Shown here: positions 1 through 10,368 of the stretch, in pieces
Layout of the letters: each line of letters begins with the position of its first letter
Numbering within the stretch: the first letter of the stretch is position 1
NCBI GenBank assembly: GCA_022842935.1
Contig: JALHOP010000023.1
Span: 1-47,397, forward strand
DNA: 47,397 nucleotides
Source: Myxococcota bacterium
GTDB lineage: Bacteria; Myxococcota; XYA12-FULL-58-9; JALHOP01
Direction of reading: 5' to 3'
Made by a program: the position numbers and the translations under genes
Notes under the pieces: generated by a model
Databases searched by the model: none
Told to the model about the DNA's origin: nothing
The model's input: the letters and a program-made list of their open reading frames with translations, nothing else

Positions 1-203
1 AACTCAGGTCGGCTTCAACTGGGAGGCGAAAAGCGACGTCGATGGATGCGTGTTGTTGTTGACAGCCGAGCCTCTATTGGCTGTGAAAGATGGCCGTCGC
101 CGGCCTGGTGCAGAGTTGTGCGCTATGCCGGTGTGGCGCGCAACGGGCTAGAACTACGCGAGTGAAGCCGGCGAACTCGCGGCGCATCGCCGCGAGGCCT
201 TGC

Positions 204-224
204 GGCCATCTTGGATTGGGCGCG
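204..224. repeat. 21-bp direct repeat copy 1 (GGCCATCTTGGATTGGGCGCG), just downstream of the 286-aa gene
   Basis: Read directly from the sequence. It matches 1135-1155 at 20 of 21 positions. Confidence 0.8.
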
Positions 225-247
225 CTCAACGCCACTGACATCTGCGT

Positions 248-1108
248 TCACGCTTTCTGCCAAAGCAGATGCAGCTCACCGTTGTCGCCTGGACCGACCG
301 CAAAGAACCAAACCTTCTCGAAGCGATGGTCGCGCCCGTCGAGGAGCGCTTTCGCCCGAGCCTGGCCCGTCCCAAACAGCCCGCTCACTCCCATCTCGTA
401 GATCAACAACCACAGCTTGCCGCCGTACCCGCCATAGTGTTTGTCCAGCTTCACTTTTACGGCGTCGGGCAACGCCGCGTCGACGTCGATACCTGTCATG
501 TTGATGCCGCTACTGAACCGCATTCTGAATGGCACCTCGGGCGCCGCGACCCGCGTTACAGTGGGCCAGAGCTGAATCTTGCTGACATCGTCGGTGATCA
601 ACTCTTCAACGCGGCTGTCGCGAGTTGGCTCTAGCTTCGCAAAGTGTCCAATGTGATCTCGCAGCCACGTCTCGAGCAGCTTGAGCACGGCTTGTCCCTC
701 CTTGCTTTTCAAAGCTGGCAGCACGGCGCAGCTCTCCCACAAGTTCAAGTAAAGGCCAGCGAGGCGATCCGCGACGTCGTCGATCGCGTTGAGGAGTGCG
801 GTTGTGAACAGCTCCCGTTGACGTCTGACGATCATCTCGTGCGCCAGTACAGATTCGACGACTTCGACACCTAGTTTGCTGTCATCGAGTTTCCCCTCGA
901 GGTCTGGCCAATCATTGTGCTGATCTTTCTTCTTCAGCTCTGTGACGATTCCCTTGGCTACAAGAGCCTTTTGAAACTTTGCTACTACCCAGGTTTCAAG
1001 CTCGCCTGGGTCCGTGGGAGGCGTTTCGATGACCGTCGCCACCGAGCCGTCTGCCCCGTAGACGACATAACCAGCCTTCTTGCTCGGCTTCTTCGGTCGC
1101 TTTGTCAC
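248..1108 (-). CDS. Hypothetical protein, 286 aa. Last gene of the integrase-linked cassette. No recognisable motif.
   Basis: Long ORF in the lower-GC island, same strand as and 60 nt downstream of the HTH-fusion gene. Lys-rich N-terminus (MTKRPKKPSKK). Flanked by 21-bp direct repeats. Confidence 0.6.
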   Translation of the reverse strand: MTKRPKKPSKKAGYVVYGADGSVATVIETPPTDPGELETWVVAKFQKALVAKGIVTELKKKDQHNDWPDLEGKLDDSKLGVEVVESVLAHEMIVRRQRELFTTALLNAIDDVADRLAGLYLNLWESCAVLPALKSKEGQAVLKLLETWLRDHIGHFAKLEPTRDSRVEELITDDVSKIQLWPTVTRVAAPEVPFRMRFSSGINMTGIDVDAALPDAVKVKLDKHYGGYGGKLWLLIYEMGVSGLFGTGQARAKALLDGRDHRFEKVWFFAVGPGDNGELHLLWQKA

Positions 1109-1134
1109 TCTACACCTCTCAAACGAGCCCCCGA

Positions 1135-1155
1135 GGCCAGCTTGGATTGGGCGCG
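1135..1155. repeat. 21-bp direct repeat copy 2 (GGCCAGCTTGGATTGGGCGCG), in the intergenic region between the 652-aa and 286-aa genes
   Basis: Read directly from the sequence. It pairs with 204-224. Confidence 0.8.
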
Positions 1156-1168
1156 ATCCGCGGGTCTG

Positions 1169-3127
1169 CTATAGCAATCTGCGCGTGTAGAACGTGGTGA
1201 AGCTATTCGCGATTAGGGTGTGGCGCGAGATGACGCGCATCGTGGACCGCGTACTCTTCTCAATGAGTCGGTAGTTGTCGTGGTCGATGACGATCTCCGA
1301 CTCGAGTTCGTTACGCACCAAGGCCCGGACGAGTCTCGCGCACGAGTCAATGGAACGGACCACGAGGATCCCGTTCAGAACCCCGGTGCTGAGAATCACC
1401 TGCAGCGCCAGGGGATGTTGCTCGCGGAAGAGGTGTGCGCGCTTTTCGAAGTTAACTGCGACCGCAACGAGGATGCCGACCAAGTGAGGGCGTACGTCAG
1501 TAGGAACCGCAGACGGAGCTTCGCCCTTCACCACCTTATCCAACCAGCTGCGATAGTTTGATCGCTCGGACTCCTCAGGAATCCGCGATGCCTCTCCGTA
1601 GAGATCAAAGTCGGCCCAATGCGCCACCGTTGCTTGCGCGAGCGTCGCATCGCTCGCTTTGCTCAAGCGGATAGTCAGCAGACGTGACAGCAGAGCCTGC
1701 TGATCCATGGTCTCGTCCGCCTCCCGATCCTCCTCTGTCCCTTCCTTTGAGATCTGAGTTTGCAGGTCAACGCGGGACAAGAGCCCCAGCGACTCTGTAT
1801 CGACATTCGCGTCCGGGGCGAACAAGCGCGGGACGTAGACGATCACAGGCTTGCCTTGTCCCAACGCCACCGAGGCTTCGGAATCCTTGCCAAAGGTGTC
1901 GGTCTTTTGCGCCATGTACAGTGTCATGGCGGATCGACGAAGCATCAGCGCCTCGACCAAGCCCTTGGCTACTCGATCTTCAATCCACGACTGCGTTGGG
2001 TTGAAGTACCTGAGCTTCAGAGGGCGAACGTCAGAGTGCTCGAATAGCGCGCGGCAGAAGGCGTTGACCGAAACGAAGTCTGCGTCCGAGCGCATTGACG
2101 TGGCCACGTAAACGTCAAGGTGGTCGGCGGCTAGGTAGCGCGCCAGATTGCGCTGTGCAGTTTCCTGCGTATCTGCCATCCGGGTGAGGTCGGACTCCTC
2201 TTTGGGGGCGAGTCGTACCGCTTCGCGTCTTAGCGCATCGGTGTCCTTTGAGAAGAGCGGGGACAAGAAGTCGTGCGGCAGGCTTGAATTGAACTTTCGC
2301 AACAAGCTGGCCATCTTGCGTTTCCGCTTCTCGGTGAACCGCGACAAACCGGTTCCTTTCTCCTTATCTAACGCGTCGGCGACCTCGACCAAGAACGCCG
2401 CAAGCAGACGTCGCTCATCGGATTCCTGCCTCGCCTTCTGCGCAGATATGTAGCCCAAGTCGGGGAGTCGCTCGTCAGCGATGGTTTCGATCCCATCCCA
2501 ATTGCTTCGCGACCGAAACGCCTCATCATCCTTGGATTGAAGGGGTGCCAACATTGCCCGGAGGTCTTCCGCTTGATTGAGCGTGCGGTAGGCGTCCTCA
2601 AAGGTGCTGAATAGGCGGATCACCTCGGCCTGGTACTTTCGCACCTGCTTGTTGAAATCCGCTGGTGACCGAAGAGCGTCTGGTCCGAGATATCTGGCAA
2701 AGAACTCGGACGAACACGGTTCCACGTCGTAGTAGACGAGCACGGAATTGAAGGCGTCGTAAGCCTGGTCCTCAGTGCGGTCGATTCGCGACAGGTTTAG
2801 AACCTCAGCCTTCGCCACGTCTGCGGTCGGCTCGTCGTGGTAGCGTAGGGATACCGGTCGACCAACGAGTTCGCCCAAAGCCTCCTCGAACGCCAGCTGG
2901 GTCTGGTACTCCGCGTCGAGGAAGTCCTTCCAGAACTTCGGCGGAATGCCCAGATACTCGCAGACTGCGGTCAGAACATCTGGCGTTGGGACTCGGCGAC
3001 CCTGCTCGAGATGCGCGACGACCGAACGATTCGTACTGGCCGCTTTCGCGACGGCGTCCTGCGAATCACCGCGTTGCTCGCGAGCCGCCTTTACCTGCTC
3101 GCCTAGATCCTGCAGGTGCACCGCCAT
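1169..3127 (-). CDS. Fusion protein, 652 aa: N-terminal XRE-family helix-turn-helix plus a central Rossmann-like nucleoside 2-deoxyribosyltransferase-like (NDT/SLOG-type) domain and a C-terminal region of unknown function
   Basis: Residues ~10-65 (QDAVAKAASTNRSVVAHLEQGRRVPTPDVLTAVCEYLGIP) are a typical XRE HTH. Residues ~330-440 contain VYVATSMRSDADF ... TDTFGKDSEASVALGQGKPVIVYVP. This resembles the NDT signature D-x-G-x-x-E-x-G-x-A-x-x-x-GK-x-V (Lactobacillus NDT ...ELGYALSQGKYVLLVIP, recalled from memory). Lower GC than the backbone. Confidence 0.6.
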   Translation of the reverse strand: MAVHLQDLGEQVKAAREQRGDSQDAVAKAASTNRSVVAHLEQGRRVPTPDVLTAVCEYLGIPPKFWKDFLDAEYQTQLAFEEALGELVGRPVSLRYHDEPTADVAKAEVLNLSRIDRTEDQAYDAFNSVLVYYDVEPCSSEFFARYLGPDALRSPADFNKQVRKYQAEVIRLFSTFEDAYRTLNQAEDLRAMLAPLQSKDDEAFRSRSNWDGIETIADERLPDLGYISAQKARQESDERRLLAAFLVEVADALDKEKGTGLSRFTEKRKRKMASLLRKFNSSLPHDFLSPLFSKDTDALRREAVRLAPKEESDLTRMADTQETAQRNLARYLAADHLDVYVATSMRSDADFVSVNAFCRALFEHSDVRPLKLRYFNPTQSWIEDRVAKGLVEALMLRRSAMTLYMAQKTDTFGKDSEASVALGQGKPVIVYVPRLFAPDANVDTESLGLLSRVDLQTQISKEGTEEDREADETMDQQALLSRLLTIRLSKASDATLAQATVAHWADFDLYGEASRIPEESERSNYRSWLDKVVKGEAPSAVPTDVRPHLVGILVAVAVNFEKRAHLFREQHPLALQVILSTGVLNGILVVRSIDSCARLVRALVRNELESEIVIDHDNYRLIEKSTRSTMRVISRHTLIANSFTTFYTRRLL

Positions 3128-3256
3128 TGCGTACCTCCGAGTTTGGAGACGCGATCACATCAAAATACACCCGGCCGTCAAGAAGTAGCGCCGCCGTGAT
3201 GAGGACATTGCCAATGCGGCCGCCCGGAGACGGCCGACTAGACTAGTAGCTTGTCG

Positions 3257-3955
3257 TCAGGGCTGCGGGCGCGGCAGTGCGGCGGGACGTTCTGGGCGTG
3301 CGGGACGAGGGTATTCCCCGTTGAGCACCTTGCGAGTTCGTTCGTCGATCAGCCGTTGAATCTCAGCGAGCTCCGCTTTGAACTTCTCGCTACCCAGGTA
3401 GGAAGCATCCGTCACGACGAGCAAACGCTCGTCGAGCGTTGATGCGGCCGCCATAAAGGCGGAAGCGTTGTAAGTGACCGCGTCGTGAAAGGCTTTGACG
3501 GAAGGAATGTACGCTTTGGACAAATCGTAGTTCTGCTGCAACGCGAGCTGGTCGTAGCTGCTTCTAAGGGTCTCAGTGATCGCGCCTGCGTGTAGGTACT
3601 CTTGCGTGAGCGCAATTGTGGCGGCGTCGAGTAGGTCAGTCGCCGTTTCGTCAGCGAGTGCGGTGTAGAGCAGGTTGAAGAACAACCCTTCCGCGGTCAC
3701 CTCACGCACGCTGGTGGAGAGTTCTAGATCTCGAATCTTGGTGGCGCGCTCTAGGTTGTAGTGAACCTCCCATCTCGCAAGCTCTAGTTTCCGAATGGCG
3801 CGTTCACGAGCGTCTCTGGCGGTCTGCTGATGGGTGCGCTCCCAGACGTCTGCGGCTTGGACCTTGCCGGCCGCATAACCAACCGTCAGACCAACCATGG
3901 TGACCAAAAGTTGCACCACGATAGCGGGCCAGTTTTCCGACAGATATTTCCGCAC
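3257..3955 (-). CDS. Membrane-anchored protein, 232 aa: one N-terminal transmembrane helix followed by a helical soluble domain. First gene of the cassette after the integrase.
   Basis: GTG start. Hydrophobic stretch WPAIVVQLLVTMVGLTVGYAAG at residues 9-30. Pro/Arg-rich C-terminal tail. Same strand as the integrase and the HTH fusion. Confidence 0.5.
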   Translation of the reverse strand: MRKYLSENWPAIVVQLLVTMVGLTVGYAAGKVQAADVWERTHQQTARDARERAIRKLELARWEVHYNLERATKIRDLELSTSVREVTAEGLFFNLLYTALADETATDLLDAATIALTQEYLHAGAITETLRSSYDQLALQQNYDLSKAYIPSVKAFHDAVTYNASAFMAAASTLDERLLVVTDASYLGSEKFKAELAEIQRLIDERTRKVLNGEYPRPARPERPAALPRPQP

Positions 3956-3967
3956 GAGGTTGGTCTT

Positions 3968-3981
3968 CTGGGCGCGCGCCC
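3968..3981. promoter_or_regulatory. Perfect 14-bp palindrome TGGGCGCGCGCCCA, 13 nt upstream of the membrane-protein gene start. Candidate operator.
   Basis: Read from the sequence. Its half-site TTGGGCGCG is shared with the 21-bp direct repeats at 204-224 and 1135-1155. Confidence 0.3.
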
Positions 3982-4040
3982 AATGTGTTTTTGTACGACA
4001 CCGTATCTACCACGCCTTCTTGCCCCCCGCCGCTCCGCCA

Positions 4041-5381
4041 TTACTCCCCCCGCACCCGCCGGAATGCAGCGATCACGGCATTTTGCAGCGTTTTGTAGAA
4101 CTCCGGACGCGTGGCGCGGCTCGCAACGTCTGGCGGTAGCGTGGCGCGGGCAGTTGCCCAGGCTTCCTCTGGCGGTAGGTCAATGCGCAACCAGCCGGGC
4201 CGTTCTTCGACTGCCGCGATGCCTTCCAGCCGGACCGTCGCCTCTTTCGTGATGAGGAGGGCGTGCGCGACCCGAGTCGGGCCGTCGCTCGCGCCGAAGA
4301 CGACGCGCAGACGAGCCGTTGGGTTGGCGGTGGGATGCGCGGAAGCCTGTGCTGCTGAGCCCCCAGGGTCGAGCGCGTCGAGTGGACTCTGCGGGTCGGA
4401 GCGAGTCGTCGTGATGTGTGTGTAGAGACGCGTCGTCTCGAGATTGGCGTGGCCGAGAAAGTCTTGGATGAGACGGAGGTCCGTACCGCCTTCCAGCAAA
4501 TGCGTTGCGAATGAGTGGCGTAGCGAATGGCACGTGACGTTCGCGCGTAGGCCAGCGAGCTCGGCGGCGCGCCGGAACATGCGTTGAGCGGTGCGCGGCG
4601 ACAGGTGGCGGCGGTCGTTGGCGCTCGAGGGGAAAAGGAAACTCTCCGGGGTGGCGGCGGTGCGCAGAGCCAGCAGCCAGCGCTTCCACTTCGTTGGCAT
4701 CAGCGCGCGGCGGTCTTTTGCGCCCTTGCCTCTGAAAACCCGAATGCTGCCCGACTCGAAGTCGAGATCGCGCCAGCGGACGCGGCACATCTCGCCGACG
4801 CGCATGCCGGTCGCGTACAACAGCCCCAGCAGCAGCTTGTCGCGCCGCGCCGGCGCCGCAGCAAGCAAGCGCAGGATCTCGTCGCGGCTCATCACCGTCG
4901 GTAACGACCGCGCGCGTCGCGGTGTGACGAGACCGGTTGTCGCTGTGAGACAGCACATCTTGTCGAACACGGTGCGGAGCATCGAGAGGTTACTTGCGAC
5001 CCATGATGCGCTCGCGCCAGCATCCACGAGGAACTCGAGATACTCGCGCACCAGCTCGCGGTTTGTCTCGGAGGCCGGTGCTTGCGACCAGCGCAGGAAC
5101 TGCATCAGCGCACCCAGGTACGTCTTCACGGAGCGCCGGCTGTAGAAGCGGATGCGCAGCTCGCGCCGGATCTTGCGCACGAACATGCTCGACGAAACAT
5201 TTGCCCGCGTCAGGTCCACGACCGCATGCGATGGGCCGAGCGCGTCATCGAATGGTCGGCGCGGTCCGAACCGGCCGCGCGCGATCCGGTAGACACGACC
5301 ATCGTTATAGGTGTGCGAGTCGATGCGGCGGCCCACGCGACGCTCGAGTGCCAACCCCGTGCCAACGGATGACCAGGCCAA
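4041..5381 (-). mobile_element. Tyrosine site-specific recombinase (phage-integrase / XerD-like family), 446 aa, with N- and C-terminal extensions
   Basis: Catalytic region HSLRHSFATHLLEGGTDLRLIQDFLGHANLETTRLYTHI with the R...HxxR...Y signature. Core-binding-like N-domain (RRSVKTYLGALMQFLRW). About 65 extra residues after the catalytic Tyr. Confidence 0.9.
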
Positions 5382-5891: not shown

Positions 5892-8765
5892 CTATTCAGC
5901 TGCGCTCGCCCACCCGAATGGTAGACATGTATAGGTCACCTCTTGACCAGGCTTCGCGGCGATCGCGCGGATCTCCGCGTCATCGAGCACCGAGCCGCCA
6001 TCGTCGGGCTCGAAGAAGCCATCGGGCTGCAGCTTGTAGGTGCGCGCGCGACCTTCGGTGACGAAGCGTGCGACGAGGTCGCACTCGCGCGCTCCGGCGC
6101 CCAGCACCTTCGATACGAACGGCGTCTTGGCACGCGCGACCAGCAAGTCGATGCGTGGCCCAACGCTCGCGGCGTTGTCAGCGCGCAGGGTGACCTGCTG
6201 ACCAACGACCGGTGCCAAGTCAGTGTCGAAAGCGAGCAAGTATTGCTCGACGTCACGTCGCTGGGGGTCGCCGCCGGTGAAGCCCACCCGGCCGTCGTAC
6301 GTCGGGTTGAAGACGACCTGCTGCAAGAACCGAAACAGCGTATCGGTACTGCCGTCGAAGGCGTATCCGGTACCGCGGACCTGGGCGCCCTGATAGCCGT
6401 TGTCGCCGAGGTTGATGTGGTCGACGGCCGGCGAGCCGAACATGCCAACCTTGTGGACCATGTTCCGCAATTGCGGAATCTTGAAGGTCTGCGGTAGCGC
6501 TTCGAAGCTCGATTGACCGTCGGTCCCGAAGAAGCCCTTCGCAGGGTCGAGGGTGTGGCAACCCTGGCAGGTGAAGCCAAACCCGGCGATGGGTAGACCG
6601 TCGGAGAAATGGCCAAGCCCGGTCGCGATGGGCTCGTTGGGCGAGCAGCGCGCAACGTTTCCAGAGACGCTCGGGGTGCCGGCGCATCCCAGATAAAACT
6701 GGCGGCCACGCTCCTGACTTGCGTTCAAGCCATTGTCCAGCGCGCGCACCGGGTTCGGTGGCATGACGACCGAAAGCGTGAACGCCGTGAATGCTTGCAT
6801 CGCCTCGCGCGGCAGAGGCTCGGCGCGCCCAAGCAAGTCCTGAAAGGCGCCGATGAAGTTGTTGAACGACAGCTCGGCGTCATACGGGGGCGCCTTGCTC
6901 GTGTCCGTGCCGAAAGCGCCCGAAACCCGGTCGCCACGCCAGTGCATGGGACCGTGATTTACTAGACCGCGCAGCGTTTGCGTGGTCAGCGGCCCCTTCA
7001 TGGGATGCAGGGCGTCCACTTCGCCGGTCCCGTTGATGGTGGGTTCTGCGCCGAGCCCGAGGCGCACGGGCACGGGGCTTATCACCACCTCCCCGTCTGG
7101 ATTGCCGAGGTCCCAAGCCAGGTGGTCGTCATCGGCGAATATATGGCAGCTCGCGCACGCAGCTTCGCCGTTCGAAGACAGGCGCCCGTCGTAGAGCGCT
7201 GGTCGGCCGGTGGTCACCACACCCGGCTCAGGGTTTGCGAGGGTGCGATGGCCGCTTTCTTTTGCCGTTGCGAGGTCGATCACGGAGACGCCGTTGTCGA
7301 AGCGCGTCGCGACATACAGGCGTTGTCGTCCGCTATCAAGGACAACACCCGATGGGCCGCCGCCCGAGACGTCCAGGTAGCCGGCACTCGCAACGCGTGG
7401 ATCGAAGCTGTCGTTCTCGAGCGCTGCAGTCGATAGCACTCCGACTTTTGCCGAGCCGAATCCCGCGACGTAGAGCGTCGCGCCATCGGGGCTGACCACG
7501 ACCTCGAGGGGCGTCGACAAGCTGTGGCTGGCAGTGTCCGTGGGCGCCGGCAGGACGTCGTAGGCGATGTGCTTGTTGAGGTGACGCGGGCGCACGCTCG
7601 CCCCGTCGACGACGGTGATGCGCGATTCGGCGAGGTGACCTTGCAGGGTGGTGGCCGCGTACGTGCCCGGCCCTTCGAAGCGCAGGTCGTTGCGCGCCTC
7701 GGTGTTCGAGACATACACCACGCCGGTTACGGGGTTCACGGCGACGTTGAAGAGTGTCGTGCCAAGGCCCGCGTATGTCGCGACCGTCGCGAGATTGCCG
7801 GTGTCGATCGCGAAGAGGTCTTGGTCGGGGAGGTCGAAGGTCGCGGCCGCGGTCCAGTCGCGTCCCAACACGTCCCGCCAGACGCCATCGTTGCCGGTCT
7901 TGAGGATGACCGCGACTGGAGGTGCGGGAACGCCGTCGTGACTGGTCGCAGGGCCGGGCGGAGCACCAGGGACCTCGATGCCCAGCTTGACGCATGTCGA
8001 GGTCACTCCTGGGCCATCGAAACCGGCGCACGGTAGTGTCGGGGGCGTCACCGTGGTGCGGTTCCCCGACTTGAAGACGGCCACGTAGACCCGAGCACCG
8101 TCTGGCGAGACCGCGAGACCACGTGGGGAATCGCCGAAAAACGAAAGGATGCGCAGCGGTGTGCCGCCGAGCGTGTCGCCGAGGTTGTCGCCATCGAAGA
8201 CCCAGACGTCGGCACGCCCGATGCCTGGTGTCGTCAATAGCGGATCGCCGGCGCCGGGCACGTTTGCGATCGACGGGTCGGAGCGATGCTGGCCGCGATG
8301 CGCCGTGCTGATGAATGCGCGCCGACCCTCGGGGCCAGCGAACACAATGTCTTGTGGCTCGTCGCCCACCAGCAAGGTTCGCACCACACGTGGCGGGCTT
8401 GTCGTCGTGTCCACCACGCTGACGCTATCGGAGAGGTGATTGACCACCCACACTTCGCCGTTGGCGCGCGCTGCGACAGCCACGGGCTCGAGGCCGACGT
8501 GCGTCGAGCTCACGAGCGTTAAGCCGTCAGCACTCACGTCGAGCACGTCGAGCGTGGCGTTGGGTGTGTTCGCGACGAAGAGTCGGCTACCGTCAGCGGA
8601 CAGGGCGAGAGGGCGGACAGGGCCGCTTTCGAAGGTAAAGGTGGGTGTAAGTGTGCTCGACGTCGGTGTCACCACTGGCAAGTCGACCGGGTCCTTGTCG
8701 TCCGAACAGGCGCTGGAACAACAAACGAGTGCAATGAGCAGCGGTGTGGTCGTGGATATTTTCAT
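5892..8765 (-). CDS. Secreted lipoprotein: YVTN-type beta-propeller fused to a di-haem cytochrome c peroxidase / MauG-like domain
   Basis: Start at the internal Met (MKISTTTPLLIALVCCSSACS, lipoprotein-like signal). Two CXXCH haem-binding motifs (ACASCH and CQGCH) in the C-terminal half. Repeated LYVA/VSVID propeller blades in the N-terminal half. Confidence 0.7.
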   Translation of the reverse strand: MKISTTTPLLIALVCCSSACSDDKDPVDLPVVTPTSSTLTPTFTFESGPVRPLALSADGSRLFVANTPNATLDVLDVSADGLTLVSSTHVGLEPVAVAARANGEVWVVNHLSDSVSVVDTTTSPPRVVRTLLVGDEPQDIVFAGPEGRRAFISTAHRGQHRSDPSIANVPGAGDPLLTTPGIGRADVWVFDGDNLGDTLGGTPLRILSFFGDSPRGLAVSPDGARVYVAVFKSGNRTTVTPPTLPCAGFDGPGVTSTCVKLGIEVPGAPPGPATSHDGVPAPPVAVILKTGNDGVWRDVLGRDWTAAATFDLPDQDLFAIDTGNLATVATYAGLGTTLFNVAVNPVTGVVYVSNTEARNDLRFEGPGTYAATTLQGHLAESRITVVDGASVRPRHLNKHIAYDVLPAPTDTASHSLSTPLEVVVSPDGATLYVAGFGSAKVGVLSTAALENDSFDPRVASAGYLDVSGGGPSGVVLDSGRQRLYVATRFDNGVSVIDLATAKESGHRTLANPEPGVVTTGRPALYDGRLSSNGEAACASCHIFADDDHLAWDLGNPDGEVVISPVPVRLGLGAEPTINGTGEVDALHPMKGPLTTQTLRGLVNHGPMHWRGDRVSGAFGTDTSKAPPYDAELSFNNFIGAFQDLLGRAEPLPREAMQAFTAFTLSVVMPPNPVRALDNGLNASQERGRQFYLGCAGTPSVSGNVARCSPNEPIATGLGHFSDGLPIAGFGFTCQGCHTLDPAKGFFGTDGQSSFEALPQTFKIPQLRNMVHKVGMFGSPAVDHINLGDNGYQGAQVRGTGYAFDGSTDTLFRFLQQVVFNPTYDGRVGFTGGDPQRRDVEQYLLAFDTDLAPVVGQQVTLRADNAASVGPRIDLLVARAKTPFVSKVLGAGARECDLVARFVTEGRARTYKLQPDGFFEPDDGGSVLDDAEIRAIAAKPGQEVTYTCLPFGWASAAE

Positions 8766-9035
8766 GGGAAGGCCGCCAAGAACTTTCTCATCACTGTTGA
8801 ACACCGGCGAGGCCAATTCGTTGCACCCAATTCGGCTGGGACCGCATGCGAGGCTCTGTCGAAGACTGGCGTGCCACACAGAAGCGCGGATCACGGCGCT
8901 GCACCGAGAAGCGCGGCGCGCCCGAGTCGTGACCGCGGGTCATGGCTCGAGCAAGCGCGCGAGGAAGGCGCGAACGACCCGCGGGACGCCGATAGGGCTT
9001 GCCAGGCCGAGTGCTTCGGGAGACGACCGAGCACC

Positions 9036-9362
9036 ATGAGCGACAACCTCGAATGGTCCCGCACGTTCCGCAGAGTGCTGGCCAGCACGGTGAGCTTTTT
9101 TCTCCTCGCGATCATGGCGATCGTGCTCGGCTTCACCCGCGGTCACGGCTTCGTGCCACCCTCCTTCGAGAGCTCACCGCCCGCCGTGCTGCTCGTCTAC
9201 GGAGTGGGTCTGGGCTTTCCCGCGTTCAGCGCGTTCTGCCTGCTGGTCGCTTGGGTTCGGCTGAGCGAAAAGCGCTACGGCGTGGCGCAACGCCTAGCAC
9301 TCGCGCCGTGGGGTTACTTCGCCGTCTTCATGACGTTGCTAGCGCTGCTACTGCGCCGCTGA
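9036..9362 (+). CDS. Small hydrophobic membrane protein, about 108 aa from the internal ATG. Hypothetical.
   Basis: Three to four hydrophobic helices (FFLLAIMAIVLGF, VLLVYGVGLGFPAFSAFCLLVAW, YFAVFMTLLALLL). GC3-rich codons. Confidence 0.35.
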   Translation: MSDNLEWSRTFRRVLASTVSFFLLAIMAIVLGFTRGHGFVPPSFESSPPAVLLVYGVGLGFPAFSAFCLLVAWVRLSEKRYGVAQRLALAPWGYFAVFMTLLALLLRR

Positions 9363-9375
9363 CAAACAGCCTTGC

Positions 9376-10368
9376 TCAGACGCTTGTCGAAGACGCGCCC
9401 GGCATGTGCGAGTGGGCGTGATAGCTGCTCCGCACCAGCGGACCACTCTCGACGTGCTTGAAGCCGCGCTTCAAACCCTCTTCCTTCAGGAAGCGGAACT
9501 CGTCGGGCGTGTAGAAGCGCGCGATGGGGGCGTGCTTCTTGGTTGGGTTCAGATATTGGCCCAGCGTGAGCACGTCGCATTCGACCTGGCGCAGATCATC
9601 CATCACCAGAAGCAGCTCGTCGATGGTCTCGCCCAAGCCAACGATGACACCTGTCTTCGTGGTCATCGCCACCGGCTTGCCGCTGCCGTTGTCGCCCTTG
9701 CGATAGGCGTCCGCGCGAGCGAGCAGCTCGAGGCAACGCGCATAGATACCCTTTGAGCGCATCGCCTTGTAGAGGCGGGGAACGGTTTCGGTGTTGTGGT
9801 TCAACACCTCGGGCCGCGCGTCGAGAACCTTACGCAGAGAGGCGTGGTCACCCATGAAGTCAGGGATGAGGACTTCGATTTTGGTGCCCGGCTTGCGCTC
9901 ACGAATGGCGTTGATGGTGTCGACGAAGTGATAGGCGCCGTAGTCGGGCAGGTCGTCGCGGTCGACGCTGGTGAGGACCGCGTGGGTGATGCCCAAGCGT
10001 GCCACGGCCTCGGCGACATTCGCGGGCTCTTGTGGATCGGGCAGGTTCTTTGGCCGACCGCTGATGACGCTGCAGTAGCGGCAATTGCGCGTGCAGACCT
10101 CGCCCAAGATCATGAAGGTCGCGGTCTTGTGCTGGCCCCAGCACTCCCAGATGTTCGGACAGCGCGCCTCTTCGCAGACGGTATTGAGCTTCAGGTCGCC
10201 GAGGAGCTTTTTGACGTCGTTGTAGGTCTCGGTGTTCTGGACCTTGATGCGCATCCACGGGGGTCTGCGAGCACCGGCCCCTTCGCGGGCAACAGGAGTG
10301 ACGGGGGTGTCTTTGGTTGCTACGTCGGTCACGCGTGCATTCCTGCTACGTCGGAACGCACATGGCAA
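9376..10368 (-). CDS. lipA: Lipoyl synthase
   Basis: CEEARCPNIWEC and CTRNCRYCSV cysteine clusters (both 4Fe-4S sites). The start may instead be the internal Met at 10254. Confidence 0.9.
   Translation of the reverse strand: MPCAFRRSRNARVTDVATKDTPVTPVAREGAGARRPPWMRIKVQNTETYNDVKKLLGDLKLNTVCEEARCPNIWECWGQHKTATFMILGEVCTRNCRYCSVISGRPKNLPDPQEPANVAEAVARLGITHAVLTSVDRDDLPDYGAYHFVDTINAIRERKPGTKIEVLIPDFMGDHASLRKVLDARPEVLNHNTETVPRLYKAMRSKGIYARCLELLARADAYRKGDNGSGKPVAMTTKTGVIVGLGETIDELLLVMDDLRQVECDVLTLGQYLNPTKKHAPIARFYTPDEFRFLKEEGLKRGFKHVESGPLVRSSYHAHSHMPGASSTSV

What the first reader, a model, noticed from the sequence alone, without database searches (positions are those of the whole stretch)
1169..3127. 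652-aa protein: XRE helix-turn-helix fused to a degenerate nucleoside 2-deoxyribosyltransferase-like Rossmann domain
The N-terminal ~65 residues are a textbook XRE HTH. Residues ~330-440 carry DVYVATSMRSDADF ... LYMAQKTDTFGKDSEASVALGQGKPVIVYVP. The tail ALGQGKPVIVYVP is strikingly close to the active-site region of Lactobacillus nucleoside 2-deoxyribosyltransferase (...ELGYALSQGKYVLLVIP, recalled from memory). The segment preceding the GK is 4 residues shorter, and the acidic residue (DSE) is shifted relative to the catalytic Glu. This suggests a divergent or regulatory version of a nucleotide-binding or -cleaving fold. DNA-binding domains fused to NDT-like domains are unusual. About 200 residues follow that I cannot assign.
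Basis: partly seen in the sequence, partly recalled or inferred. Interest (0 to 1): 0.7.

Follow-up and report, generated by a model that had tools for sequence, protein, structure and literature searches.

The report
HTH-fused NDT-like nucleotide glycosidase candidate
This gene encodes an unnamed 652-residue protein that joins a DNA-binding head to an apparently intact nucleotide-cleaving domain of the deoxyribosyltransferase/TIR type; it moves between distant bacteria and often sits beside DNA methylases and defence genes, so it is a good candidate for an undescribed anti-phage or nucleotide-pool enzyme.

Summary
The ORF at 1169..3127 (-) is real. It has a GGAGG ribosome-binding site and more than 700 full-length homologues at 54-69% identity in about ten phyla. 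Residues 7-65 are a canonical XRE helix-turn-helix.

Profile alignments place E417 in exact register with the NDT nucleophile E98, D410 on D92 and Y340 on Y7. The motif Y340-x3-S344-x-R346 plus T411 copies the Rcl/DNPH1 5'-phosphate-binding pattern. These residues are (near-)invariant, also in HTH-less relatives (28-36% identity in the loci examined).

The gene is usually solitary. In 12 of ~80 genomes a D12 adenine DNA methylase lies nearby, directly adjacent in 8. In 7 an 8xMP membrane protein lies alongside. One relative carries a TIR domain in place of the HTH.

Best reading: a nucleotide N-glycosidase of a conflict/defence type, with the HTH as an add-on. The substrate and any defence role are untested.

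The parts
1169..3127 (-). Whole gene, 652 codons plus a TAG stop at 1169-1171
   Evidence: ORF list. GGAGG 8 nt upstream of the ATG. 720 homologues.
2930..3127 (-). Residues 1-66: XRE-type helix-turn-helix
2198..2929 (-). Residues 67-310: all-helical domain with no detectable relative. Includes the invariant L224-G-Y226 (within LPDLGYISA), H285, S289, L291-F292 and D295.
1808..2197 (-). Residues 311-440: NDT/Rcl-like Rossmannoid catalytic core. Strands: beta1 VYVA 339-342, beta2 374-375, beta3 401-405, beta4 428-431.
2090..2110 (-). Y340-V-A-T-S344-M-R346: beta1 motif with the catalytic-site Tyr and an Rcl-type phosphate-binding Ser/Arg
   Evidence: Translation. hhalign places it on Rcl SVYFCGSIR (Y13/S17/R19) and on NDT TIYFGAGWF (Y7). 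Invariant in 116 sequences.
1877..1900 (-). D410-T-F-G-K-D-S-E417: loop and helix start carrying the predicted nucleophile E417 (codon 1877-1879), the ribose ligand D410 and T411 (the Rcl S87 position)
   Evidence: Translation. hhalign E417<->NDT E98 and D410<->D92. E417<->Rcl E93 and T411<->S87. Invariant.
1433..1807 (-). Residues 441-565: helical insert between beta4 and the rest of the fold, variable in length among relatives
   Evidence: Secondary structure. The profile domains of distant relatives skip positions ~370-490.
1172..1432 (-). Residues 566-652: conserved C-terminal alpha/beta module (HPLALQVILSTGVLNG..., strands 587-634). It probably supplies the last strand and helix of the NDT fold.
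   Evidence: Conserved in distant relatives at profile positions 490-579. With the insert removed, hhalign runs on from beta4 into HPLALQ<->KPINLM of NDT (weak).
3128..3256 (-). Upstream intergenic region: ribosome-binding site and an 8-nt inverted repeat CGGCCGTC/GACGGCCG (3172-3179 / 3229-3236)
   Evidence: No sigma-70-like promoter found by the scan. No operator shared with 48 other loci.
1124..1158 (-). 35-nt repeat just downstream of the stop codon, with a second copy at 193-227 downstream of the next gene
   Evidence: the 20-nt core GCGCCCAATCCAAG[C/A]TGGCC occurs twice against 0.01 expected.

Best explanation
The gene encodes a multidomain enzyme. Its catalytic heart (residues ~311-440, plus the C-terminal module) is a divergent but intact member of the nucleoside 2-deoxyribosyltransferase / Rcl-DNPH1 / MilB group of N-glycosidases. 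E417 is the predicted nucleophile or general base that attacks C1' of a ribose or deoxyribose. Y340 would position it and D410 would hold the sugar hydroxyl. S344, R346 and T411 would bind a 5'-phosphate. The substrate is therefore most likely a phosphorylated nucleotide, such as a (d)NMP or a modified (d)NMP, or NAD(P)+ as for the retron-Eco1 NDT-like effector. A free nucleoside is less likely.

The ~520-aa core (helical domain, NDT-like domain and C-terminal module) is the ancestral unit. The window's clade added an N-terminal XRE HTH. I take the HTH to be an add-on that either autoregulates the gene, as the C proteins of restriction-modification systems do, or tethers or gates the enzyme on DNA.

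The family behaves like a horizontally moving conflict/defence gene. It is mostly a one-gene unit. In a minority of loci it forms a tight operon with a D12 N6-adenine DNA methylase and/or an 8xMP membrane protein.

Shown here: gene, domains, fold, register of the catalytic residues, conservation, phyletic pattern and neighbour statistics. Inferred: catalysis, substrate class, role of the HTH and any defence role.

For: Active site: hhalign puts E417 on NDT E98 and on Rcl E93. It puts D410 on D92, and Y340/S344/R346 on Rcl Y13/S17/R19 with T411 on S87. Y340, S344, R346, D410 and E417 are invariant in 116 homologues and T411 is conserved in 91% of the wider family. All 37 positions conserved in at least 90% of the wider family lie in residues 327-428.

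The HTH is accessory: 99 of 101 distant representatives lack it. One relative, P0231, has an N-terminal TIR domain instead.

Mobility and conflict flavour: 83 loci in ~10 phyla among 185,579 species genomes, in a pattern-limited scan. The flanks are unrelated in most loci. In the window the gene sits in a low-GC islet next to a tyrosine recombinase, and integrases are nearby in 3 other loci. Truncated or frameshifted copies occur in six genomes.

Recurrent neighbours: D12 methylase in 12 loci, of which 8 are directly adjacent on either side. 8xMP membrane protein in 7 loci, with 4-bp start/stop overlaps in L026, L061 and L062. Thymidylate-kinase-like protein in 4 loci (3 immediately adjacent), matching PADLOC PDC-M51B. 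TM-fused dCTP-deaminase-like protein in 2 loci. PNP_UDP_1 effector-like protein in 3 loci. In L026 and L062 the trio methylase-gene-8xMP is a minimal islet inserted after glnS.

Precedent: the retron type II effectors combine an NDT-like domain with a DNA-binding domain. The Eco1 effector hydrolyses NAD(P)+.

Against: The positions of NDT D72 and N123 could not be matched. The N123 position appears to be Ala574 in a weak alignment.

No relative was found in PADLOC, in 50,697 phage genomes, in 72,556 plasmids or in IMG/VR. Most loci lie among ordinary metabolic genes, so the defence-island signal is partial and was not tested against a background.

Sequence conservation (54-69% identity across phyla) is higher than is usual for defence genes.

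No conserved operator was found upstream, so the role of the HTH is unsupported.
Confidence: 0.45

Rival explanations
1. Nucleotide-sensing transcription factor (one-component regulator). The NDT-like domain has become a ligand pocket, or a ligand-consuming enzyme as in NadR, BirA or NrtR. It tells the XRE HTH when to bind DNA.
Against: 99 of 101 distant family members have the whole conserved core but no HTH, so the core function does not need DNA binding. The full NDT catalytic set (Tyr/Asp/Glu) is invariant. There is no conserved regulon and no conserved neighbours in most loci. No shared operator was found in 49 upstream regions. The sporadic distribution, 83 of 185,579 species in a pattern-limited scan, is unlike a housekeeping regulator.
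Confidence: 0.17
2. Restriction-like DNA base-excision enzyme. The HTH and helical domains read DNA, and the NDT-like domain flips out and excises a base (glycosylase) from foreign DNA. A D12 adenine methylase protects the host, by analogy with the R.PabI restriction glycosylase and its adenine methylase.
Against: About 85% of loci have no methylase nearby, which a classical restriction enzyme could not tolerate. HTH-less relatives lack an obvious DNA-reading domain. No NDT-fold enzyme is known to act on polymeric DNA (my knowledge). L018 and L034 have other candidate partners for the methylase: a GIY-YIG/DUF4357 protein and a DndB-like protein. The methylases are much less conserved than the focal protein and only loosely co-vary with it (32-75% against 45-94% identity, Pearson 0.52, Spearman 0.23 with p 0.06).
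Confidence: 0.13
3. Nucleotide-pool sanitising or salvage enzyme, not immunity proper. It would be a DNPH1/MilB-like hydrolase that removes a modified (d)NMP, for example N6-methyl-dAMP released from Dam-methylated DNA, or hydroxymethyl-pyrimidine nucleotides. The HTH would give substrate-responsive autoregulation.
Against: A 650-aa four-domain protein is far larger than any known sanitiser (140-170 aa). The phyletic pattern is rare and patchy. The kinase, deaminase and PNP neighbours have defence-type features: PADLOC PDC-M51B, PDC-M60C and PN-superfamily effector hits, and transmembrane tails. One relative is TIR-fused. The gene is coupled to a membrane protein in 7 loci.
Confidence: 0.15

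Closest known systems
Nucleoside 2-deoxyribosyltransferases (Pfam PF05014; L. leichmannii NDT 1F8X, PTD 1S2D, 7M5H, 7O62, 6EVS)
   Different: No HMM-level similarity and 11-15% identity. The domain is embedded in a 652-aa protein with an HTH, a 240-aa helical domain and a ~125-aa insert inside the fold. It has a Ser/Arg phosphate motif that NDTs lack. The N123 (5'-OH ligand) position is apparently Ala.
Rcl/DNPH1 (2'-deoxynucleoside 5'-phosphate N-hydrolase; 2KHZ, 4FYH) and MilB CMP/hmCMP hydrolase (4OHR)
   Different: hhalign probability is below 5%. Those enzymes are ~150-aa single-domain dimers of core metabolism or antibiotic biosynthesis. This protein is a large multidomain, horizontally spread protein.
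Retron type II effectors (Retron-Eco1/Ec86, Sen2 RcaT): NDT-like N-glycosidase plus DNA-binding domain
   Same: They combine an NDT-like catalytic domain with a DNA-binding domain in one polypeptide, within a defence system. The Eco1 effector hydrolyses NAD(P)+ and is switched on when a phage methylase methylates the DNA it is bound to (PMC7736814; PMC12673091). Here a DNA methylase is the commonest neighbour.
TIR-domain NADases (SARM1, ThsB, TIR-STING, TIR-SAVED)
   Different: Lower Z than the NDTs. No Pfam TIR hit. TIR domains lack the beta1 Tyr/Ser/Arg motif.
XRE-family HTH regulators and R-M controller (C) proteins
   Different: Those are 70-120-aa dimeric repressors. Here the HTH is about 10% of the protein and is dispensable in most of the wider family.

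Membership tests
XRE helix-turn-helix (Pfam HTH_3 / HTH_31) | Profile match above the curated cut-off | tested here: met
   HTH_31 scores 50.7 bits (cut-off 27) and HTH_3 scores 43.1 bits (cut-off 23), residues 7-65.
XRE helix-turn-helix (Pfam HTH_3 / HTH_31) | Five-helix lambda-repressor-like fold | tested here: met
XRE helix-turn-helix (Pfam HTH_3 / HTH_31) | Sequence-specific DNA binding to an operator | tested here: inconclusive
   No dyad or k-mer is shared by 49 upstream regions beyond shuffled controls. Binding itself cannot be tested with these tools.
Nucleoside 2-deoxyribosyltransferase family (PF05014 / PF15891) | Profile-HMM match at or above the gathering score | tested here: not met
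   The window protein has no hit at E<=1. Only 1 of 30 family cores hits PF05014, at E 0.037. No PDB NDT is found by hmmsearch with the family profiles.
Nucleoside 2-deoxyribosyltransferase family (PF05014 / PF15891) | NDT-type Rossmannoid fold | tested here: met
Nucleoside 2-deoxyribosyltransferase family (PF05014 / PF15891) | Catalytic Glu (E98 of LlNDT) at the start of the helix that precedes G-K-x-V-beta4 | tested here: met
   hhalign aligns E417 to E98 without a gap (probability 27-54%). E417 is invariant in 116 homologues and conserved in 99% of the wider family.
Nucleoside 2-deoxyribosyltransferase family (PF05014 / PF15891) | Tyr on beta1 (Y7) and Asp before the Glu (D92) | tested here: met
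   Y340<->Y7 (low-mact alignment) and D410<->D92. Both are invariant.
Nucleoside 2-deoxyribosyltransferase family (PF05014 / PF15891) | Base/5'-OH ligands D72 and N123, and the C-terminal carboxylate from the partner subunit | tested here: inconclusive
   With the insert excised, HPLALQ aligns to KPINLM, which puts Ala574 at N123 (weak). D72 could not be placed. The oligomeric state cannot be tested here.
Nucleoside 2-deoxyribosyltransferase family (PF05014 / PF15891) | Deoxyribosyl transfer or N-glycosidic hydrolysis activity | not testable with these tools
   Needs biochemistry.
Rcl/DNPH1 nucleotide N-hydrolases | Y-x3-S-x-R on beta1 and a Ser six residues before the catalytic Glu (5'-phosphate site) | tested here: met
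   DVYVATSMR against SVYFCGSIR and T411 against S87, in the hhalign low-mact alignment. The Rcl sequence was verified against 2KHZ. The alignment probability is very low (1-4%), so this is a motif match rather than proof of homology at family level.
TIR domain | Pfam TIR/TIR_2 match, with TIR as the best fold match | tested here: not met
LOG/SLOG | PGGxGTxxE and GGGxxG motifs, with LOG as the best fold match | tested here: not met
Retron type II system | An adjacent reverse transcriptase and msr/msd ncRNA | tested here: not met
   No RT family is among the families recurring in 118 immediate neighbours. No RT-like cluster appears in the +/-5 kb neighbour clustering. ncRNA was not searched.
Type II restriction-modification system | An obligatory cognate methylase next to the restriction component | tested here: not met
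   A D12 methylase is present in 12 of ~80 loci, directly adjacent in 8, and absent from the window.
Known anti-phage systems (PADLOC v2) | Match of the non-HTH part to any defence-protein model | tested here: not met
   Only HTH-containing models match, over residues 7-77.

The most novel reading that the evidence does not exclude
This may be a retron-free counterpart of the Retron-Eco1 effector. In this reading it is a DNA-bound nucleotide/NAD(P)+ N-glycosidase, and its HTH reads the methylation state of DNA. That state would be set by the neighbouring D12 adenine methylase or by an invading phage methylase. A change in methylation would switch the NDT-like domain on, depleting a nucleotide pool or producing a signal for the coupled 8xMP membrane protein. 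It would be a new one- to three-gene immune system that uses DNA methylation as its alarm.
Probability: 0.12. Interest if true: 0.85.

Novelty: new variant of a known kind. Interest (0 to 1): 0.62.

Why it matters
The NDT/Rcl/TIR group of N-glycosidases is central to nucleotide salvage and to NAD+- and nucleotide-depleting immunity. This is a large family: 731 clusters at 50% identity, found in ~10 phyla. It is strongly conserved and its non-HTH part matches no Pfam, NCBIfam or PADLOC model. It carries an apparently intact active site of that type inside a new architecture. If it is active, it adds either a new anti-phage effector or system, possibly linked to DNA methylation, or a new class of nucleotide hydrolase. 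It would also give a name and a testable function to proteins now annotated only as 'helix-turn-helix domain-containing'. The invariant E417, Y340, D410 and R346 give immediate mutational handles.

Tried and rejected
- Sequence-level routes to a named family all failed for the non-HTH part. This covers Pfam, NCBIfam and PADLOC on the protein, phmmer/hmmsearch against PDB sequences with the protein and with two family profiles, and Pfam on 30 family cores.
- Foldseek against the PDB returned only HTH hits and one weak ThsB hit. The afdb50 library was unavailable.
- Integron cassette idea. The window integrase scores below the integron-integrase cut-off and lacks the IntI-specific segment. No RYYYAAC...GTTRRRY site flanks the gene in L012, L020 or L061. 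The 35-nt repeat downstream of two window genes does not look like attC. Rejected for the window and left open for L012/L020, whose integrase does look like IntI.
- Prophage repressor idea. No relatives in phage GenBank, PLSDB plasmids or IMG/VR, and no tRNA in the window.
- Conserved operator. None found by dyad or 7-mer counting against shuffles. By eye, GATC is not enriched in the 70 nt printed upstream of each start.
- PD-Lambda-5 link. The PADLOC PD-Lambda-5_B hits of neighbours are generic D12-methylase similarity, much weaker than their Type II methylase hits. The focal protein does not match any PD-Lambda-5 model.
- A deeper NDT profile from a database search gave only narrow Lactobacillus NDTs and did not raise the hhalign probability.
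- Conserved partners of the HTH-less relatives: none found.
- The window's own record and organism could not be retrieved.
Full report
**1. The observation**

The minus-strand ORF 1169..3127 (652 aa, ATG start) exists as described. A GGAGG lies 8 nt upstream of the ATG. I re-translated the key codons: YVATSMR is 2090-2110 and DTFGKDSE is 1877-1900.

It is a real gene. A search with residues 72-652 found 720 proteins at E<=1e-3. The best 120 are 54-69% identical over essentially the whole length. They come from Myxococcota, Gammaproteobacteria, Acidobacteriota and others, and nearly all are annotated only as 'helix-turn-helix domain-containing'. An exhaustive profile search found 731 clusters at 50% identity.

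**2. What can be named by sequence**

Only the N-terminus can be named. Pfam HTH_31, HTH_3 and HTH_19 match residues 7-65 above their cut-offs. NCBIfam and PADLOC hit the same 60-70 residues and nothing else.

No PF05014, PF15891, TIR or LOG model matches. PDB sequence searches with the protein and with family profiles find no NDT. When 30 diverse family cores were scanned one by one, a single one touched PF05014, at E 0.037.

**3. Structure**

With a 116-sequence alignment, AlphaFold gave a confident model: pLDDT 89.9 and pTM 0.84 for the full length, and 90.3 and 0.86 without the HTH. The layout is as follows.

- Residues 1-66: HTH.
- Residues 67-310: an all-helical domain.
- Residues ~311-440: an alpha/beta core with strands 339-342, 374-375, 401-405 and 428-431.
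- Residues ~441-565: a helical insert.
- Residues 566-652: a beta-alpha-beta3-alpha module.

**4. Do the catalytic positions line up?**

I verified my recalled sequences of L. leichmannii NDT (100% identical to 1F8X) and of rat Rcl (2KHZ).

hhalign of a 30-sequence alignment of family cores (A3) aligns TLYMAQKTDTFGKDSEASVALGQGKPVIVYVP to GVYIPDEED-VGLGMELGYALSQGKYVLLVIP. This puts E417 on the nucleophile E98 with no gap between the Glu and the GK, and D410 on D92. The probabilities are 27%, 54% against an NDT+PTD mini-profile and 37.5% against a 122-sequence NDT family alignment.

Extended alignments put DVYVATSMR on NDT TIYFGAGWF (Y340<->Y7). They also put it on Rcl SVYFCGSIR (Y340/S344/R346 <-> Y13/S17/R19), with T411 on Rcl S87 and E417 on E93.

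The probabilities are modest and the Rcl alignments are very weak. Still, every alignment gives the same register, and that register agrees with the order of secondary-structure elements in the model.

Y340, S344, R346, D410 and E417 are invariant in 116 homologues. In a set of 92 sequences dominated by HTH-less relatives (28-36% identity to the window protein in the loci), all 37 positions conserved in at least 90% of sequences fall between residues 327 and 428, including T411 at 91%.

The site looks intact. It also has an Rcl/DNPH1-style phosphate-binding signature that true NDTs lack.

If the insert 440-565 is cut out, the alignment continues from beta4 into HPLALQVILSTGVLNG <-> KPINLMSWGVSDN. 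This suggests that the C-terminal module completes the fold and that residues 441-565 are an insertion. That step is weak. It places Ala574 at the position of NDT N123, the 5'-OH ligand. That would fit a phosphorylated substrate, but this is inference.

**5. The family**

Three blocks recur in the distant relatives (median 522 aa): the helical block, the NDT-like core and the C-terminal module. 99 of 101 distant representatives have no HTH. One, P0231, carries an N-terminal TIR domain instead. The HTH is therefore an accessory of the window's clade, not part of the core function.

**6. Distribution and context**

A scan of one genome per species (185,579 species) found 83 loci. The scan was limited by its search patterns. 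The phyla include Myxococcota, Verrucomicrobiota, Acidobacteriota, Bacteroidota, Pseudomonadota, Campylobacterota, Planctomycetota, Elusimicrobiota, Ignavibacteriota and the non-photosynthetic cyanobacterial lineages. Six copies are truncated or split. No relative exists in 50,697 phage genomes, 72,556 plasmids or IMG/VR.

Most flanks are unrelated to one another. Clustering ORFs within 5 kb, and scanning 118 immediate neighbours against Pfam and PADLOC, gave these recurrent partners.

- A D12 N6-adenine DNA methylase in 12 loci. It is directly adjacent in 8, either upstream, downstream or convergent, with gaps from -41 to +85 bp. These methylases best match Type II/orphan methylase models at E 1e-97 to 1e-100.
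- An 8xMP membrane protein (PF24838) in 7 loci, mostly just downstream. Its start overlaps the focal stop by 4 bp in L026, L061 and L062.
- A thymidylate-kinase-like protein in 4 loci (3 immediately adjacent), matching PADLOC PDC-M51B.
- A transmembrane dCTP-deaminase-like protein in 2 loci.
- PNP_UDP_1 proteins in 3 loci, matching the PADLOC PN-superfamily effector and PDC-M60C models.
- An integrase in 4 loci, including the window.

In L026 and L062 the trio methylase-gene-8xMP is a minimal islet inserted after glnS. No nuclease domain turned up among the genes beyond the methylase that I scanned in L022, L024, L026, L032 and L062 (L013's methylase is at the contig end; L023 was not scanned). 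L018 has a GIY-YIG/DUF4357 gene and L034 a DndB-like gene next to the methylase.

The methylases are more divergent than the focal proteins (32-75% against 45-94% identity). They co-vary only loosely: Pearson 0.52, but Spearman 0.23 with p 0.06. This argues for repeated juxtaposition rather than one inherited operon.

The HTH-less relatives have no recurrent partner. No operator-like dyad or k-mer is shared by 49 upstream regions.

**7. The window itself**

The gene lies at the left end of the contig in a ~4-kb stretch of lower GC (58-59% against 62-67% over most of the window). It is downstream of a Xer/integron-like tyrosine recombinase (4041-5381), which scores below the integron-integrase cut-off and lacks the IntI-specific segment. 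Two ORFs without any family flank it. One is 232 aa (3257-3955) with an N-terminal hydrophobic helix. The other is 286 aa (248-1108).

The rest of the window is housekeeping: lipA, lipB, a 2-oxoacid dehydrogenase E2 and gyrA. No methylase or 8xMP gene is present here.

**8. Interpretation**

Shown:
- a real, widespread and strongly conserved gene;
- an XRE HTH;
- an NDT-superfamily fold;
- an invariant Tyr/Asp/Glu set in the NDT register, plus an Rcl-like Ser/Arg/Thr;
- an HTH that is dispensable in the wider family;
- a patchy phyletic pattern, mostly solitary, with a significant minority linked to adenine methylases, a membrane protein and defence-type nucleotide enzymes.

Inferred: the domain cleaves an N-glycosidic bond of a phosphorylated nucleotide, that is (d)NMP, a modified dNMP or NAD(P)+. 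The protein acts in inter-genome conflict. The HTH either autoregulates or couples the enzyme to DNA.

The nearest mechanistic precedent is the retron type II effector. It combines an NDT-like N-glycosidase with a DNA-binding domain. In Retron-Eco1 it hydrolyses NAD(P)+ and is triggered when a phage methylase methylates the bound msDNA (PMC7736814; bioRxiv 10.1101/2023.08.16.553469; PMC12673091).

Three rivals cannot be excluded without experiments: a nucleotide-sensing regulator, a methylase-paired restriction glycosylase, and a modified-nucleotide sanitiser. I give the conflict-type nucleotide N-glycosidase reading about 0.45, and the fold and active-site assignment alone about 0.85.

**9. 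Novelty**

I found no paper describing this family. Its fold and chemistry are of a known kind, but the architecture and gene associations are new. The architecture is an HTH or TIR head, a novel helical domain, and an NDT-like core split by a large insert. I rate it a new variant of a known kind, of moderate to high interest.

Noticed in passing
window 193-227 and 1124-1158: A 35-nt direct repeat (83% identical; 20-nt core GCGCCCAATCCAAG[C/A]TGGCC) sits just downstream of the stop codons of two consecutive genes, the 286-aa ORF and the focal gene. Expected by chance: 0.01 copies. It does not look like a canonical attC site, and no T-run terminator follows it.
   Followed up: partly
window 4041-5381 (-): This is a tyrosine recombinase that scores between XerA and integron-integrase models but below both cut-offs. 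It lacks the IntI-specific segment. It borders a low-GC stretch (58-59% at 1-4000 against 62-67% over most of the window), which suggests a small integrated islet cut by the contig end. No tRNA is present in the window.
   Followed up: partly
window 3257-3955 (-) and 248-1108 (-): Two flanking ORFs (232 aa with an N-terminal hydrophobic helix; 286 aa) have no Pfam, NCBIfam or PADLOC match. They do not recur next to homologues of the focal gene in 80 other loci.
   Followed up: partly
L012:4943-6076 (-) and L020:3960-5102 (-): Integrases sit divergently 1.6-2.6 kb upstream of the focal homologue. The L012 integrase carries the integron-integrase signature segment ([23 protein letters not shown]); the L020 sequence clusters with it but was not inspected. 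No attC-like site was found next to the focal gene with a simple pattern/fold search.
   Followed up: partly
L007, L057, L062, L068, L077, L083: The focal homologue is truncated or split into two ORFs in six genomes. In L062, for example, it is split into 7797-8786 and 8834-9748. These are either pseudogenes or MAG assembly errors.
   Followed up: no
L018:9777-10265, L026:9740-10225, L062:9745-10239, L061:9752-10915, L066:1102-2244, L029:306-842: A small membrane protein of the Pfam 8xMP family (PF24838) lies next to the focal homologue. Its start overlaps the focal stop by 4 bp in L026, L061 and L062. In the two Sulfurimonas loci it is fused to a longer C-terminal extension; the one scanned (L061) shows a weak, sub-threshold OmpA-like match. 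I found no literature on this family.
   Followed up: partly
P0231 (L005:6001-8088): This distant family member (28% identity) has an N-terminal TIR domain (TIR_2, E 1.2e-15) where the window protein has its HTH.
   Followed up: partly
L035:5772-9803: The ORF containing the focal homologue is 1343 aa long in an uncultured gammaproteobacterium. This is either an over-extended start or an N-terminal fusion of ~680 residues.
   Followed up: no
L033:6839-7657 (-) and L038:9181-9984 (+): dCTP-deaminase-like proteins (PF22769) with C-terminal transmembrane helices lie immediately next to the focal homologue in two Bacteroidota/Elusimicrobiota loci. This architecture is reminiscent of nucleotide-depleting defence proteins.
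   Followed up: partly
window 3172-3179 / 3229-3236: A perfect 8-nt inverted repeat, CGGCCGTC/GACGGCCG, with arms 49 nt apart, lies in the 129-bp region upstream of the focal gene. There is also an overlapping palindrome at 3228-3239. Neither is shared with other loci.
   Followed up: partly
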